DNA of 41,694 bases from IMG/VR virus record IMGVR_UViG_2529292985_000032; one strand, written 5' to 3'. Positions 2,894 through 6,425 of this stretch are shown one piece after another. Source of the DNA: a virus. Its lineage: Duplodnaviria > Heunggongvirae > Uroviricota > Caudoviricetes. How positions within the stretch are numbered: the stretch's first letter is position 1; every line of letters begins with the position of its first letter. A model generated the notes under the pieces. That model was not told the origin of the DNA. It saw nothing but the letters and a program-made list of their open reading frames with translations, and did not search any database. The translations under genes and the position numbers were made by a program.

Positions 2894-2987
2894 CGTTTAA
2901 CGTGCATAACATCATTATTAATGGCGATTTAATCATATACAACAAACCCAATATGGTTAACACATTTTTTGATAAATAATGACGAAA

Positions 2988-3002
2988 TTACCTTAAAGGT
3001 GA
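2988..3002. promoter_or_regulatory. Operator-like palindrome TTACC-TTAAA-GGTGA upstream of the lysis cassette
   Basis: Matches the recurring TTACC-N5-GGTAA motif (one mismatch in right half); about 95 bp upstream of the 2893 start. Confidence 0.4.
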
Positions 3003-3220
3003 TATAATTACCCTTTACTTAGAAACCTTTAGCTACTGGAATTTGAATCAATGCTGTTTAATTTTATACACTACCACCATTTAGTTTTCGATCTGCTCGA
3101 TAGTATATAGAGGCTCAACTTTATAAAAAATATATTTTACCGTGAGCTAACTAATATAGTTAGTGCACGCAATGTAACTACCAGTTTGTATTATAAAATT
3201 ATATCAACAAAGGAAACATA

Positions 3221-3905
3221 ATGAGAAAAATTTACCTAATATTAACAATCATAATTTCTGTATTTACTGGCATATATATTGGTGCCAGTCAAACATTACC
3301 ATATAATTTAAAATATTCTCTCAAAGAATATTTTTTATCGGGTAAAAACAATTCACCGATAGGCCATGCTTATTGGTCAAAACGTGATCTAACATATTTA
3401 AAACAAAGGAAAGTTGATATTATTATGCTTGGCGACAGCATCACAGAAACAGGAAGATGGTCTGACTTCTTTCCTTCAGTATCAATAGCGAACTATGGCA
3501 TAGCTGGTGATACCAGCCAAGGAATTAAGAATAGATTAGAACCTATAATAAATGCAAAACCCAAGAAGGTCTTTATTATGATTGGTACTAACGATCTTAC
3601 CAATCATGAAAGTGTACAAAAGATATTAGATAATTATAGAAATATTAAATAGAAACGGAATTACCACTATAATTCAATCAACAATCTACTCTGGCATAAA
3701 CGAAAAGATAAAAAATAAGAAAATAAAACAAATCAATGAAGGTCTTCAAAAATTATCTAATGAGCAACAAATAACCTATCTAGACCTTAACACATCGCTA
3801 TCACCAAATGGGTATTTGAAAAATGAATATACAATTGATGATACTCATTTATCTAAAGATGGTTATAAGGCGTGGATAGAAATTTTAAAACCTTTTATAC
3901 TCTAA
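3221..3905 (+). pseudogene. SGNH/GDSL hydrolase with N-terminal membrane anchor, frame-disrupted around 3630-3652
   Basis: First frame 3221..3652 carries GDSIT (block I) and GTND (block III); stop at 3650-3652; another frame is open 3630..3905 and carries DDTHLSKDGY (block V); the two frames differ by one net nucleotide. Confidence 0.7.
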
Positions 3906-3912
3906 GATCTTT

Positions 3913-3938
3913 AAAGGGGCTATTTGCCCCTTTATCTT
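3913..3938. terminator. Bidirectional hairpin terminator between convergent SGNH and AT3 genes
   Basis: AAAGGGGC-TATTT-GCCCCTTT with T-rich tail on the plus strand and A-run on the other side. Confidence 0.5.
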
Positions 3939-3941
3939 CCA

Positions 3942-4892
3942 TCATCTACCACCTAAAAACAATACTCTTGTTAATGCGATCCTAGTAAATATTTCGTGAG
4001 TAATTATAGACAAAATAAGAGTTATCATAAACATCGCTATACCTTCTCTCATATATTCAGCAAGGATAAAATGAAACATCTGATGCACAAACATAATTGT
4101 TAATGATGCTTTGCCTATTATTTCTAATGGTTTTATATAATTTCCATCAAGTCGTTTAAATAATTCAATAACAACAACAGAAAATACAATATTTATGATA
4201 AAACTGACGAATGGAACACCATACAATGACGTCTTCATGTCAAACATAAAAATTTTTTGATACGCTATCGCAATAAAAAGCAGCACGATAGATACAACAA
4301 TAAAAAACAAAAGCCGTACATTACACTCTTTATAGAATAAACCAACCATTGCCAATGGAACAGCATACAACACAACATTGGCATTTAATGGAATTGGGAA
4401 TTTTACCAACCAAGACAATACATAAGAGCACATTAATAAAATAAAAGCCAAGAGCCACTTATCTTTTGCCACCCTTAGTTTTTCACTAATTAACATCAAA
4501 ACTATAAGAGTGAAAAACATAACAGGAATAAACCAAAAAACACCAAACCAACCAGTCATAACCTGACCACCATAAACCATCTTTATTAGTTGTTTTATCA
4601 TTAATTTTGAATCATACCCATCCCTCATAATATTATAAGAAGAAAACACCACAAATAATAAAATAGAATATGAAAAATAAGGAACGATTAGTGATTTAAC
4701 TTTCCCAACTATAAACTTATTTTTGTCATTGGGCTCTTTAAATAAAATTCCAGAAACGATAAAAAACAATGGCATATGGAAAAGATAAATCACATAAGAT
4801 GATAAGCCACTTATAATATGCGCATAAACAACAAGTATAATTCCGAAACCTTTAACGGCATCAATATAGCCAAGTCTTTTTTTAGTTTCCAT
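3942..4892 (-). CDS. Acyltransferase-3 (AT3) family membrane O-acetyltransferase, Oac-like
   Basis: 316 aa, polytopic; N-terminal AT3 signature (GYIDAVKGFGIILVVYAHI ... FHMPLFF); AT-rich codon usage. Confidence 0.8.
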   Translation of the reverse strand: METKKRLGYIDAVKGFGIILVVYAHIISGLSSYVIYLFHMPLFFIVSGILFKEPNDKNKFIVGKVKSLIVPYFSYSILLFVVFSSYNIMRDGYDSKLMIKQLIKMVYGGQVMTGWFGVFWFIPVMFFTLIVLMLISEKLRVAKDKWLLAFILLMCSYVLSWLVKFPIPLNANVVLYAVPLAMVGLFYKECNVRLLFFIVVSIVLLFIAIAYQKIFMFDMKTSLYGVPFVSFIINIVFSVVVIELFKRLDGNYIKPLEIIGKASLTIMFVHQMFHFILAEYMREGIAMFMITLILSIITHEIFTRIALTRVLFLGGR

Positions 4893-5242
4893 TCTTAAAC
4901 CAAGAAGTTAATTTATTACAAATTGATAGATAACAACAAATCAACAACAATGTCAACATATAAAGTTACATTTATTGCCACTATTCCATGAAAAATAACG
5001 CTAGCAATATCACTAAATAACATCAAATGATTAAAATTTTAATATATAATATATCAATATCAAATAAAACTGTTAACCCCCTCACCAAATTTTACTTTTC
5101 TATAACCACCAAGAAAAGATATAACAACATGCAATACAAATAATAACGAACATTACAATAAAAAATGAAATTTATTTTTTACAAATGACTTCCAAAAAAC
5201 TACATGATATTATTTATTCTTTTTTTACATGTGGAATATACA

Positions 5243-6136
5243 ATGAGAGAACAAAGAAATTTACTTGTTGATTGTATAAAAGGCGGTGCTATCTTTCTTG
5301 TCGTACTCGGACATTGCATACAATTCATGGGGCCAAGCAGCTATAATTTTTTTGATAACTTTATATTTAAATCTATTTATAGTTTTCACATGCCATTATT
5401 CATGGCTGTAAGTGGATATTTATTTTCTGTAACAATAAAAAAAAGGAATATGTGTGAGAACATAATAAATAAATTTCACAAGCTAATAATTACAGCGATA
5501 TCATGGACCATCTTAATTAGTTTATTATTTAATGGTTCGGTAAGTGTTCAGGATATTAAATATCAATTAATATCAGGTCTATGGTTCATTACAACACTAT
5601 TCATCATATCTACTGTTGCATATACAATTTTTTCTATATCCCATAAAAATTTCATATGACTATATGCTTTATTTTGCATAGCAATACTGTTTGCTCCTGA
5701 TGGTTATAATATAAAAATGATAAAATTCCTAGCTCCATTTTTTGGGCTTGGAATGTTATTCGATTACATATTAAAAGTAACAAAACCTCTCCAAGGTAAT
5801 TTAACATTTTTAACAATATTATTTATTTGGGTTTATTTGGTCATAAATTGGAAAGAGAGCTATTATATTTACACGTCAGGAATGAGCATGGATATAAATA
5901 ACTGGCAAGAGCAATCAATTAATAACATCTACAGATTCATATCTGGTCTTATTGGTATATATATAGCAGTGTTTGTTTTCTATATTATTTCAAAAAACAC
6001 CTTATTATTAAATTCACTTTCATTATTAGGCAAACACACCCTTTCAATATATATAATACAAACTTTCATTTTTATTGGATTAGTTAACTCGATGTTATTA
6101 ATGTATATTCGAATGAATATACATATTCACTGGTAA
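5243..6136 (+). pseudogene. Second AT3 family acyltransferase interrupted by one in-frame TGA at 5657-5659
   Basis: Track ORFs 5204..5659 and 5717..6136 are in the same frame; 5660-5716 translates without stops (LYALFCIAILFAPDGYNIK); combined about 300 aa with AT3 N-terminal signature (GGAIFLVVLGHC ... FHMPLF); likely start ATG 5243. Confidence 0.65.
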
Positions 6137-6227
6137 TTGCACCTTTATTTTCGATAGTAATTATCGCATTTTGCATATTGATATCCATTATATTGCAGAA
6201 AGTGCATTTAGCTAATATTATATTATT

Positions 6228-6256
6228 GGGAGGGGAGGGGAGGGGAGGGGAGGGGA
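6228..6256 (+). repeat. Pentanucleotide tandem repeat GGG(AGGGG)5, G-quadruplex-capable
   Basis: Direct reading; six consecutive G-tracts separated by single A, in the convergent intergenic gap between AT3 gene end (6136) and tailspike end (6426). Confidence 0.9.
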
Positions 6257-6425
6257 ATATTAGATGTAAATCGTAATAAGTTAAAAAACATCTTTCAAAA
6301 AGATGGTCAAGGATGATAATAAACAGACTGCCACCTAAATTACAACTATTTTGTTACATTAATTGAGGGGCAGTCTTATCAATTATAAATCCAGATATAT
6401 TTTATTTATGCACTTTATTTATACT

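What the first reader, a model, noticed from the sequence alone, without database searches (positions are those of the whole stretch)
2894..6425. AT-rich surface-glycan acetylation island with one intact and two decayed genes
Between the lysis cassette and the tailspike is a visibly AT-rich block with different codon usage, encoding a membrane-anchored SGNH esterase/transferase (frame-disrupted), an intact AT3 acyltransferase (3942-4892) and a second AT3 gene with one internal TGA. The position and gene types fit a seroconversion (O-antigen O-acetylation) moron, but the split AT3 plus separate SGNH organisation and the mixed intact/decayed state are unusual and suggest a two-component acetylation system caught mid-decay or under phase control.
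Basis: partly seen in the sequence, partly recalled or inferred. Interest (0 to 1): 0.7.

Follow-up and report, generated by a model that had tools for sequence, protein, structure and literature searches.

The report
Decayed prophage sugar-acetylation cassette beside esterase tailspike
A phiV10/epsilon15-like prophage carries, beside its esterase-type tailspike, a three-gene cassette (one membrane-anchored esterase-like protein and two membrane acetyltransferases) that most likely rewrites acetyl marks on the host's surface sugar to block further phage attack; here, in a Shigella dysenteriae lineage, two of the three genes are permanently broken.

Summary
Positions 2894-6425 are 25-31% GC against a ~50% backbone. 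They encode a membrane-anchored GDSL/SGNH protein (broken), an intact AT3 acyltransferase, and a second AT3 that is broken twice, not once.

The block fills the serotype-conversion slot of a phiV10/epsilon15-like prophage. phiV10 has its O-antigen acetylase gene oac there, and epsilon15 has its conversion genes there.

In E. coli carriers all three genes are intact. The window's truncated products are deposited as Shigella dysenteriae proteins on many contigs, so the lesions are real and fixed. They are an 11-bp slippage deletion, a TGG>TGA change, and a 1-bp deletion. Erosion continues within that lineage. This is decay, not phase control.

The adjacent tailspike carries a true SGNH esterase domain and always travels with the island. 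Small exported GDSL genes often sit beside SGNH tail proteins in other phages. My best reading is an acetyl "eraser plus writers" cassette matched to an esterase tailspike. It is a new variant of a known kind.

The parts
1087..2893 (-). Lysis cassette (DUF2514 spanin, GH19 endolysin, two holins). It forms the left flank of the conversion slot and is part of the ~10-kb block shared at 99% with the E. coli carriers.
   Evidence: ORFs; annotation of relatives; 99.9% identity to NZ_AP022036.
2894..3220 (.). AT-rich non-coding leader of the island, upstream of the GDSL gene.
   Evidence: Sequence; composition; no Rfam match.
3221..3905 (+). GDSL/SGNH pseudogene. The intact form is a 231-aa protein with an N-terminal membrane anchor and a periplasmic esterase-like domain. 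Here an 11-bp deletion after 3632, between two ATTATAGA repeats, gives a stop at 3650-3652 and a 143-aa product lacking the Asp-x-x-His block.
   Evidence: (TM helix 2-24; GDS 71-73; GTND 122-125; DDTH 210-213).
3912..3934 (.). GC-rich hairpin between the convergent GDSL and AT3-1 genes; a candidate bidirectional terminator.
   Evidence: -15.7 kcal/mol on both strands, z -3.9 and -3.5. The pattern scan did not flag it.
3942..4892 (-). AT3-1: intact 316-aa AT3-only acyltransferase, the only surviving gene of the cassette in this lineage.
   Evidence: identical to P0121, seen on 282 contigs; 316 aa in all ten S. dysenteriae loci; K-X10-H and F-x3-SG motifs.
4893..5242 (.). Divergent intergenic region between AT3-1 and AT3-2. 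It has no GATC site. The T-run at 5220-5226 is polymorphic (T6 or T7) among carriers.
5243..6276 (+). AT3-2 pseudogene (intact form 339 aa, NolL-like AT3-only acyltransferase). It has TGA at 5657-5659 (TGG>TGA) and one T missing from the T-run near 6068-6074. The A8 run at 5437-5444 is A7 in some sister isolates.
6228..6256 (+). (GGGAG)5GGGA pentanucleotide repeat in the last ~10 codons of AT3-2. E. coli carriers have 2 units, S. dysenteriae isolates have 4 or 5, and 3 units are inferred from frameshifted protein variants.
6277..6425 (.). Intergenic region between the convergent AT3-2 and tailspike genes, with a long hairpin (about 6325-6376); a candidate terminator.
   Evidence: z -3.7 and -3.5.
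6426..8675 (-). Tailspike, 749 aa. It has an epsilon15/phiV10-type N-terminal adaptor (residues 1-230) and a central SGNH esterase domain (about residues 270-470, roughly 7266-7868). It is always co-inherited with the island.
   Evidence: hhalign 98.1%; solved phage tail fibres 9d80, 9lna and 9d84, then acetyl-xylan esterases.

Best explanation
This is the lysogenic-conversion cargo of a phiV10/epsilon15-like (Uetakevirus) prophage. It is a surface-glycan O-acetyl remodelling cassette that travels as one module with an esterase-type tailspike.

In its working form it has three separately transcribed genes. Two are AT3-only membrane acyltransferases, AT3-1 and AT3-2. By analogy with Sf6 Oac and phiV10 Oac, these carry acetyl groups from cytoplasmic acetyl-CoA across the inner membrane onto the O-antigen or another envelope glycan. 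[quoted passage not shown]

I think the GDSL protein most likely acts as an O-acetyl esterase that strips the native acetyl group which the phage's own SGNH tailspike needs as its substrate. The lysogen's receptor would therefore be 'erased and rewritten', so related phages are excluded and released progeny are not trapped on lysogens or debris.

In this window, from a Shigella dysenteriae lineage, the cassette is a relic. The GDSL gene and AT3-2 were knocked out by irreversible mutations and keep eroding. Only AT3-1 remains intact.

Shown: gene families, position in the slot, linkage to the tailspike, esterase-like fold, and the population pattern of decay.

Inferred: the substrate (O-antigen), the direction of the GDSL reaction (hydrolysis rather than transfer), and the exclusion phenotype.
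For: Slot homology: phiV10 oac, the TL-2011b O-acetyltransferase and the epsilon15 conversion genes occupy the same tailspike-holin slot, and the slot is empty in K1-specific relatives. The backbone is 97-98% identical to phiV10-type phages.

Families: GDSL_2 and two PF01757 domains. The AT3 hallmark motifs are invariant in an alignment with Sf6 Oac and phiV10 Oac.

Tailspike: it has a real SGNH domain. Its receptor-binding part occurs in exactly the same 3 of 5426 E. coli genomes as the island and in every carrier contig shown.

Other phages: small GDSL genes, mostly with a hydrophobic N-terminus, lie next to SGNH-bearing tail proteins in 11 of 44 viral loci. A GDSL gene stands alone beside the tailspike in E. 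coli phage 683R2.

Precedent: G7C, a phage with an esterase tailspike, cannot infect hosts that lack O-acetylation (PMC10743462; bioRxiv 10.1101/2021.06.09.447823). Epsilon15 is annotated with a 'transacetylase repressor', and suppressing host O-acetylation is part of its conversion (PMC9558356).

Decay: the E. coli carriers have all three genes intact. The window's truncated products are fixed in S. dysenteriae, with extra lineage-internal indels confined to the dead genes. Other lineages carry different truncations.
Against: No experiment links any of the three proteins to a substrate.

Sequence and fold cannot reliably separate SGNH esterases from SGNH transferases. PatB was first taken for an esterase (PMC9487903).

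An AT3 gene sits directly beside or overlaps the GDSL gene in three unrelated phages. That fits a transferase partnership as well as a writer/eraser pair.

Both AT3s are distant from any characterised enzyme: at most 26% identity to phiV10 Oac over 91 residues, and no solved relatives.

The serotypes of most carriers are unknown. The target could be ECA, colanic acid or a capsule rather than O-antigen.

The count for pairing with SGNH tail proteins has no formal background control.
Confidence: 0.62

Rival explanations
1. Split OafA/OatA-like two-component acetyltransferase. An AT3 protein moves the acetyl group across the membrane and hands it to the membrane-tethered GDSL/SGNH protein, which performs the final transfer onto the glycan. 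The GDSL protein would then be a transferase, not an esterase.
For: The GDSL protein's N-terminal anchor mimics the 11th helix plus linker of fused AT3-SGNH proteins (PMC7448272).

AT3 and GDSL genes are adjacent in three unrelated phages, twice with overlapping reading frames in the order AT3 then GDSL: Vibrio phage ZF14_PE001, and loci L047, L085 and L013/L043.

The review PMC9558356 says it is open whether AT3-only proteins need an SGNH partner, and that the AT3-only protein WecH can work with PatB.

Against: By eye in the alignment, both AT3s lack the GG-F/Y-xGV-D/P/V motif of SGNH-fused AT3 domains and look like AT3-only enzymes, which work alone in Sf6 and phiV10.

In this island the GDSL gene is convergent with AT3-1 and separated from AT3-2, so it is not in an operon with either.

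44 of 49 phage loci with a GDSL relative have no AT3 within 5 kb.
Confidence: 0.25
2. Phase-variable cassette. The mixed intact and broken state reflects reversible on/off switching of the acetylation genes through simple-sequence repeats, homopolymers or Dam methylation.
For: The (GGGAG)n tract varies from 2 to 5 units, even within the S. dysenteriae clone.

The homopolymers at 5220, 5437 and about 6068 are length-polymorphic.

Short-read contigs often end in the repeat.
Against: The ancestral disabling lesions are an 11-bp deletion and a nonsense substitution. Neither is reversible by slippage, and both are shared by all S. dysenteriae loci examined.

The repeat lies after the last membrane helix and alters only the C-terminal tail.

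The homopolymers are only 5-8 nt long.

There is no GATC site in the divergent promoter region, no GATC enrichment in the island (5 found, 9 expected), and no inverted repeats that could flank an invertible promoter.
Confidence: 0.04
3. The GDSL protein is unrelated to phage-receptor biology. It would be a nutrient-scavenging sialate or other glycan O-acetyl esterase, like NanS or the NanS-p esterases of Stx prophages, that happens to sit next to two acetyltransferase morons.
For: The closest solved structures are gut Bacteroides/Phocaeicola sialate O-acetylesterases. One E. albertii fragment of the cluster is named 'sialate O-acetylesterase' by its source. That Stx prophages carry NanS-p esterases is from my own knowledge.
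Against: The protein is membrane-tethered rather than soluble.

The gene is strictly linked to an SGNH tailspike and to AT3 genes, in a slot dedicated to conversion.

Relatives in other phages also sit beside tail proteins or between cI and int.

It belongs to Pfam PF13472. From my own knowledge, NanS belongs to the separate SASA family.
Confidence: 0.06
4. The frame disruptions are sequencing or assembly errors and the cassette is actually intact in this genome.
For: Two of the differences from relatives are homopolymer-length changes, a common error type.
Against: The exact truncated proteins occur in many independent S. dysenteriae assemblies from different sources, including a complete genome. 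The 11-bp deletion and the G>A nonsense change are not homopolymer errors.
Confidence: 0.01

Closest known systems
phiV10 Oac, and the O-acetyltransferase of TL-2011b, in Uetakevirus prophages of E. coli
   Same: Same phage genus, with 97-98% backbone identity. Same slot between tailspike and first holin. Same protein superfamily (AT3-only, PF01757). Presumably the same purpose: the record annotates oac as acetylating the host O-antigen and functioning in superinfection immunity.
   Different: Here there are three genes instead of one: two AT3s that are not orthologues of phiV10 Oac (at most 26% identity over 91 residues) plus a GDSL/SGNH protein. The tailspike is an SGNH esterase type. In this window two of the three genes are dead.
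Salmonella phage epsilon15 serotype-conversion genes
   Same: Same genus and same slot. Conversion there includes loss of host O-acetylation (annotation; PMC9558356), so changing acetyl marks is part of the genus's repertoire.
   Different: Epsilon15 uses a polymerase inhibitor, a new polymerase and a small 'transacetylase repressor'. It has no AT3 and no esterase.
OafA/OafB (Salmonella) and OatA: fused AT3-SGNH O-acetyltransferases; PatA/PatB and AlgI/AlgJ/AlgX split systems
   Same: A membrane acyl-translocating protein combined with an extracytoplasmic SGNH domain anchored at the membrane.
G7C gp63.1 and other deacetylating (SGNH) tail spikes or fibres, including those of Pectobacterium phages and Klebsiella prophages
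   Same: The neighbouring tailspike has an SGNH esterase domain in a receptor-binding protein. PMC13123978 reports that such receptor-binding proteins are common in Klebsiella temperate phages, that two tested ones are active esterases, and that SGNH proteins are sometimes adjacent to them.
   Different: There is no detectable sequence similarity to gp63.1 itself. The N-terminal adaptor is of the epsilon15 type. The pairing with a small membrane-anchored GDSL protein and two AT3 genes is not described in the papers I read.
T5 Llp and lambdoid Cor: receptor-blocking lipoproteins encoded next to the receptor-binding protein gene (from my own knowledge)
   Same: A small exported or anchored protein is encoded beside the receptor-binding protein gene. 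The proposed role is to inactivate the phage's own receptor in the infected or lysogenic cell.
   Different: Llp and Cor bind a protein receptor (FhuA). Here the proposed action is enzymatic removal of an acetyl group from a glycan. This is an analogy only, with no homology.

Membership tests
AT3 (PF01757) carbohydrate O-acyltransferases, AT3-only class (Sf6 Oac, phiV10 Oac) | Acyl_transf_3 domain above Pfam's gathering score | tested here: met
   AT3-1 scores 90.4 bits and AT3-2 scores 104.7 bits, against a cutoff of 31.
AT3 (PF01757) carbohydrate O-acyltransferases, AT3-only class (Sf6 Oac, phiV10 Oac) | R/K-X10-H motif in TMH1 and the FFxISG-type motif (PMC7448272) | tested here: met
   AT3-1 has K14...H25 and AT3-2 has K13...H24. 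H25, F43, S47 and G48 are invariant in the alignment with Sf6 Oac, phiV10 Oac and five other phage AT3s.
AT3 (PF01757) carbohydrate O-acyltransferases, AT3-only class (Sf6 Oac, phiV10 Oac) | RxxR motif in cytoplasmic loop 2-3, essential in Oac and OafB | tested here: inconclusive
   The aligned positions read GKVKS in AT3-1 and NKFHK in AT3-2, so they are basic but Lys rather than Arg. The motif is described as highly but not absolutely conserved (PMC7448272).
AT3 (PF01757) carbohydrate O-acyltransferases, AT3-only class (Sf6 Oac, phiV10 Oac) | O-acetylation of O-antigen demonstrated | not testable with these tools
   This needs LPS chemistry of a lysogen compared with a cured strain.
Fused or split AT3-SGNH acetyltransferase systems (OafA/OafB, OatA) | AT3 domain with the GG-F/Y-xGV-D/P/V motif at TMH2, specific to SGNH-partnered AT3s (PMC7448272) | tested here: not met
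   I read this by eye from the sequences. Neither AT3 has the motif, and both have the divergent TMH1-2 loop of AT3-only proteins.
Fused or split AT3-SGNH acetyltransferase systems (OafA/OafB, OatA) | SGNH domain of the transferase type (structurally like OafB, OatA-C or PatB) | tested here: not met
Fused or split AT3-SGNH acetyltransferase systems (OafA/OafB, OatA) | Extracytoplasmic, membrane-proximal SGNH domain encoded with the AT3 | tested here: inconclusive
   The TM anchor at residues 2-24 is present. The gene is adjacent to an AT3 here and in three other phages, but here it is convergent rather than co-transcribed, and an AT3 is absent from 44 of 49 phage loci.
SGNH/GDSL hydrolases (PF13472), carbohydrate O-acetyl esterase-like | Blocks I, II, III and V with Ser, Gly, Asn and Asp-x-x-His | tested here: met
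   This holds for the intact allele: G71, D72, S73, G93, G122, N124, D125 and H213 are invariant across 60 homologues. The window's 143-aa product lacks block V and must be inactive.
SGNH/GDSL hydrolases (PF13472), carbohydrate O-acetyl esterase-like | SGNH fold, with solved esterases as nearest neighbours | tested here: met
SGNH/GDSL hydrolases (PF13472), carbohydrate O-acetyl esterase-like | Esterase activity on an acetylated glycan | not testable with these tools
   This needs an enzyme assay.
Uetakevirus serotype-conversion slot | Cargo located between the tailspike gene and the first holin of a phiV10/epsilon15-like genome | tested here: met
Phase-variable glycan-modification loci (gtr with Dam/OxyR; SSR-controlled genes such as neuO or lic) | A reversible switch element (a repeat tract in the 5' coding region or promoter spacer, paired GATC/OxyR sites, or an invertible promoter) that turns the gene on and off | tested here: not met
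   The repeat is in the last ~10 codons. There is no GATC site in 4893-5242. There are no flanking inverted repeats. The disabling lesions are not slippage-reversible.
Esterase (deacetylating) phage tail spikes | SGNH domain with catalytic motifs inside a receptor-binding tail protein | tested here: met
   The motifs are GDS 276-278, GTND 337-340 and DPVH 456-459. hhalign gives 98.1% probability to the GDSL family. The profile hits solved phage tail fibres at E 1e-28 to 1e-33 and then acetyl-xylan esterases. PHROG places it in tail fibre/spike families.

The most novel reading that the evidence does not exclude
Small exported or membrane-tethered GDSL esterases encoded by temperate phages may be receptor-destroying exclusion factors. 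The prophage would express an enzyme that removes the very O-acetyl group its own esterase-type tailspike must find, making the lysogen invisible to that phage and to others with the same specificity. In this lineage two AT3 'writers' would add new acetyl marks alongside it. That would be an enzymatic, glycan-level counterpart of the Llp/Cor receptor-blocking lipoproteins, and a conversion mechanism (active de-O-acetylation) that I did not find described in the papers I read.
Probability: 0.33. Interest if true: 0.7.

Novelty: new variant of a known kind. Interest (0 to 1): 0.48.

Why it matters
Prophage-encoded O-antigen modification shapes serotype, vaccine targets and phage host range in E. 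coli and Shigella. This cassette adds two points.

First, it is a natural case where AT3-only acyltransferases sit beside a separate membrane-anchored SGNH protein. That bears on the open question of whether AT3-only enzymes need an SGNH partner (PMC9558356). The intact E. coli alleles give a simple genetic system to test it.

Second, the strict linkage of the cassette to an esterase-type tailspike, and the recurrence of small GDSL genes beside SGNH tail proteins in other phages, suggest that temperate phages carry matched read, erase and write sets for glycan acetyl marks.

The decayed Shigella copy is of minor interest in itself. It fits the general gene loss for which Shigella is known (my own knowledge). 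It also shows that the (GGGAG)n tract and short homopolymers are the fastest-mutating sites once selection is lost.

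Tried and rejected
1. Near-identical DNA in sequenced phages: none found for the island.

2. Homology of the tailspike to G7C gp63.1: not detectable by phmmer against the PDB or by tblastn against phages. I kept it only as a functional analogy.

3. Structure prediction of the whole tailspike from a single sequence: pLDDT 31, unusable, so it was not used for fold search. I replaced it with profile methods.

4. My first AT3 profile scan of viral loci missed known positives because HMMER's bias filter removed them. 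I redid it with --nobias and diverse queries, and all 7 controls were then found. The first count is discarded.

5. Dam/OxyR-type switch, invertible promoter, known RNA elements and tRNA in the island: none found. Promoter-like hits are no more frequent than in shuffled sequence.

6. Serotype of the S. dysenteriae lineage: the literature searches found nothing useful. The serotypes of most E. coli carriers were also not determined.

7. Whether the rest of the prophage is degraded: the comparison with E. coli carriers breaks down beyond about 11,132 because the backbone is mosaic, not because of decay. I make no claim either way.

8. Non-phage relatives of the GDSL protein: these are housekeeping-type contexts without an AT3, so they say nothing about function here.

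9. The seroconverting coliphage Hf4s of E. coli 4s: it uses a Gtr cluster, not this system.

Full report
**1. What is there**

The block 2894-6425 stands out in composition. Its 500-bp windows are 25-31% GC, against about 45-56% for the rest of the window. GC3 of its genes is 0.23-0.26, against 0.45-0.56 for backbone genes.

It lies between a lysis cassette (1087-2893: DUF2514 spanin, GH19 endolysin, two holins) and a 749-aa tailspike (6426-8675).

Three E. coli chromosomes out of 5426 complete genomes carry the same block at about 99% identity. All three also have the prophage at the same chromosomal site next to yfgI. In them the block has three annotated genes:
- a GDSL-type esterase of 231 aa;
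- an acyltransferase of 316 aa, truncated in O22:H8 strain 154;
- a second acyltransferase of 339 aa.

Pfam confirms Lipase_GDSL_2 (E 6e-23) and two Acyl_transf_3 domains (E 1.5e-25 and 7e-30). NCBIfam gives a sub-threshold NolL-like match for the second AT3.

**2. The lesions in the window**

I aligned the window with nine intact E. coli copies.

- **GDSL gene.** It lacks 11 bp after position 3632. The deletion lies between two copies of ATTATAGA, a typical slippage deletion. The 143-aa product keeps blocks I-III of the SGNH motif set but loses the Asp-x-x-His block.
- **AT3-2.** It has TGG>TGA at 5657-5659. It also has one T missing from a T-run near 6068-6074, which frameshifts the last third of the gene.
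- **AT3-2 repeat.** It carries five GGGAG units where the E. coli copies have two. The extra 15 bp are in frame.
- **AT3-1 (3942-4892).** It is intact and identical to the most common allele.

**3. The lesions are real and lineage-specific**

The exact truncated proteins are on record as Shigella dysenteriae proteins on 14-17 contigs. They occur in 34 index blocks, including the complete genome CP026840. So the window most likely comes from S. dysenteriae.

Ten loci of this lineage all share the 11-bp deletion and the TGA. They differ from one another at four sites: GGGAG copy number (4 or 5), the A-run at 5437 (A7 or A8), the T-run near 6068, and a T-run at 3857. All four sites lie in the dead genes.

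AT3-1 is 316 aa in all ten loci. With so few events this is not statistical evidence for selection on AT3-1.

Other lineages carry different truncations of AT3-1 (fragments of 186, 176, 184 and 205 aa on dozens of contigs) and of AT3-2 (285, 279 and 255 aa). The picture is repeated, independent, irreversible loss.

By contrast, every place found by looking up the intact GDSL protein had all three genes intact. That look-up is biased towards intact copies.

**4. No switch**

- GATC is not enriched in the island (5 found, 9 expected) and is absent from the divergent AT3-1/AT3-2 promoter region.
- No inverted repeats bracket a promoter.
- Promoter-like matches are at chance level.
- No Rfam family matches.
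- The GGGAG tract is truly unstable. E. coli copies have 2 units, and the Shigella clone has 4 or 5. Three units are inferred from variants P0350 and P0348, whose C-terminus changes from GGEGNIRCKS to GGEGRGILDV....
- However, the tract lies after the last membrane helix and changes only the tail of the protein.
- The T6/T7 polymorphism at 5220 sits downstream of the only promoter-like site ahead of AT3-2, not in its spacer.

**5. Context: a conversion slot**

The backbone is 97-98% identical to phiV10, O157 typing phages 9 and 10, PAS61 and others of the genus Uetakevirus. The same tailspike-holin slot holds different cargo in different relatives:

| Phage or prophage | Slot content |
|---|---|
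| phiV10 | oac, annotated as acetylating the host O-antigen and giving superinfection immunity |
| TL-2011b | one O-acetyltransferase |
| epsilon15 | alpha-polymerase inhibitor plus an O-antigen polymerase; a 'transacetylase repressor' is annotated elsewhere in the genome |
| ZX5 and the O7:K1 CE10 prophage | empty; the CE10 tail protein is annotated with an endosialidase domain |

Lysis cassettes of this prophage type occur in 560 of 5426 E. coli genomes, but this cargo occurs in only 3.

The two AT3s are not orthologues of phiV10 Oac. AT3-2 shares 26% identity over 91 residues, and AT3-1 shows nothing significant. They share only an N-terminal 36% stretch with each other. Both are near-orphans: outside their Escherichia/Shigella clusters the best relatives are 34% and 46% identical.

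Both have the AT3 hallmarks, K-X10-H in TMH1 and the F-x3-SG motif. Lys replaces Arg in the RxxR loop.

**6. What the GDSL protein is**

- It has one N-terminal membrane helix (residues 2-24, preceded by MRK) and all the catalytic blocks.
- An alignment-based AF2 model is confident, with pLDDT 90.
- Fold similarity does not prove hydrolase chemistry. PatB was once taken for an esterase (PMC9487903). It does fail the test for an OafA-type domain.

**7. Is it a partner of the AT3s?**

Among GDSL relatives in non-phage contexts, none has an AT3 neighbour.

In phages the pairing recurs:
- a metagenomic phage has GDSL followed by an Oac-like AT3 next to tail-fibre genes (L013/L043);
- Vibrio phage ZF14_PE001 has cI, then AT3, then GDSL with overlapping frames, then int (L047 is similar);
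- locus L085 also has an adjacent or overlapping AT3.

A sensitive scan of 49 IMG/VR loci encoding GDSL relatives found an adjacent AT3 in 5. Two of these are this island. So the pairing is recurrent but not obligatory.

In the window the three genes are separate units. GDSL and AT3-1 converge on a strong hairpin (3912-3934; -15.7 kcal/mol, z about -3.7). AT3-1 and AT3-2 diverge from a 350-bp spacer.

**8. The link to the tailspike**

The 749-aa tailspike has an epsilon15-type N-terminal adaptor. It also has a central region with GDS, GTND and DPVH motifs.

I aligned that region with 'tail fiber esterase' and 'hydrolase' proteins of Pectobacterium, Gordonia, Arthrobacter and Vibrio phages and an IMG/VR phage. 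The alignment keeps these catalytic positions invariant.

Its profile matches the small-GDSL family with 98.1% probability. It hits solved phage tail fibres (9d80, 9lna, 9d84; E 1e-28 to 1e-33) and then acetyl-xylan esterases. The tailspike is therefore an SGNH esterase type, like G7C gp63.1 in function but without detectable homology to it.

Its receptor-binding part occurs in exactly the same three E. coli genomes as the island and in all carrier contigs shown.

Beyond about 11,132 the window stops matching the E. coli carriers, while it matches phiV10-type phages there. So the lysis, island and tailspike block behaves as one recombination module.

Among 44 viral loci with a small GDSL gene:
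- 35 have a hydrophobic N-terminal segment. This is a rough hydropathy measure on stop-to-stop ORFs.
- 11 lie within 1.5 kb of a large SGNH-positive ORF, usually directly downstream of it. Most of those tested are tail fibres or spikes by PHROG.
- One of these tail proteins (L050) falls in phrog_8460, the same family as the window's tailspike.

A GDSL gene also stands alone beside the tailspike of E. coli P22-like phage 683R2.

**9. Mechanism proposed**

G7C, which has an esterase tailspike, needs an O-acetylated O-antigen, and hosts lacking the acetyl group are resistant (PMC10743462; bioRxiv 10.1101/2021.06.09.447823). The host in those studies, E. coli 4s, has an O22-like antigen. One carrier of this island is O22:H8. 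That is suggestive only.

I therefore favour this model. The prophage expresses a membrane-tethered esterase that removes the acetyl mark its own tailspike requires. It also expresses two AT3 enzymes that add acetyl groups elsewhere. Together they change serotype and exclude related phages. The substrate and the reaction direction are inferred.

The main rival is a split AT3-SGNH transferase.

A 2026 study of Klebsiella prophages reports that SGNH receptor-binding proteins are common and that two tested ones are active esterases. It also reports that SGNH proteins sometimes lie adjacent to them, and that 5-30% of prophages per K-locus encode acetyltransferases (PMC13123978). So the general theme is known. 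The specific three-gene arrangement and the proposed eraser role are not described in what I read.

**10. Verdict**

- conversion moron: yes;
- decay: yes, fixed in a Shigella lineage;
- phase control: no;
- two-component transferase: possible, but not favoured.

This is a new variant of a known kind, of moderate interest. The interest lies mainly in the intact E. coli form and its link to esterase tailspikes.

Noticed in passing
window 6426-8675 (SGNH domain about 7266-7868): The tailspike next to the island carries a genuine SGNH esterase domain: GDS, GTND and DPVH motifs, 98% hhalign probability to the GDSL family, and hits to solved phage tail fibres 9d80, 9lna and 9d84. RefSeq annotates it only as 'hypothetical protein'.
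   Followed up: yes
window 6228-6256; also L030-L037: The (GGGAG)n tract is hypervariable: 2 units in E. coli, 4 or 5 within the S. dysenteriae clone, and 3 inferred from protein variants. Several short-read contigs end inside it. With five or more units it has enough G-runs to form a G-quadruplex, but I did not test this.
   Followed up: partly
L021-L025 (E. coli prophage at the intS/yfdC site, e.g. LR778153, CP015228, CP067426): A very common prophage (844 index blocks) carries another three-gene cassette beside its tailspike: AT3 (354 aa), a 334-aa protein with an Ig-like/HL_N-beta N-terminus, and AT3 (289 aa, 44% identical to AT3-2). In O22:H8 strain 154 the middle gene is split by an IS element. 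The function of the middle protein is unknown.
   Followed up: partly
IMG/VR loci L050, L054, L056, L057, L061, L063, L067, L068/L069, L089, L051: Small GDSL genes with hydrophobic N-termini lie directly beside, and mostly downstream of, large SGNH-positive ORFs. Most of those tested are tail fibres or spikes. This recurring gene pair is not named in the libraries I searched. phrog_14008, the family that best matches the small protein, is listed as 'unknown function'.
   Followed up: partly
window about 11132 onward, compared with L001-L003: The window matches the E. coli carriers at ~99% from the lysis cassette to about 11,131 and then diverges completely, while matching phiV10-type phages there. 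The gene that is one 824-aa virion protein in the carriers appears here as two overlapping ORFs of 603 and 301 aa. I did not resolve whether this is mosaicism or a broken gene.
   Followed up: partly
window 5220-5226 and 5437-5444: The T-run just upstream of the AT3-2 start is T7 in six and T6 in four of ten intact or decayed copies. The A8 run inside AT3-2 is A7 in half of the S. dysenteriae loci. Any effect on expression is untested.
   Followed up: partly
L018 (Escherichia phage vB_EcoP-683R2, ON470594) 1968-2663: The annotated 178-aa 'lysophospholipase L1-like esterase' between tailspike and integrase starts right at the catalytic domain. The upstream in-frame sequence encodes a signal-peptide-like hydrophobic stretch but has no ATG, so the true start may be a non-ATG codon further upstream.
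   Followed up: no
window 27071-27147: A tRNA-Arg (anticodon TCT) lies inside the prophage. The related O157 typing phages are annotated with a tRNA-Arg as well.
   Followed up: no
L030 (S. dysenteriae CP026840) 524-1221, compared with the window's left end: In the complete S. dysenteriae genome an IS1 element lies between pdeF and yfgI, where other carriers have yfgG and yfgH. In E. coli CE10 an IS3-family element splits yfgI. The prophage's chromosomal flank is itself being eroded by IS elements.
   Followed up: no
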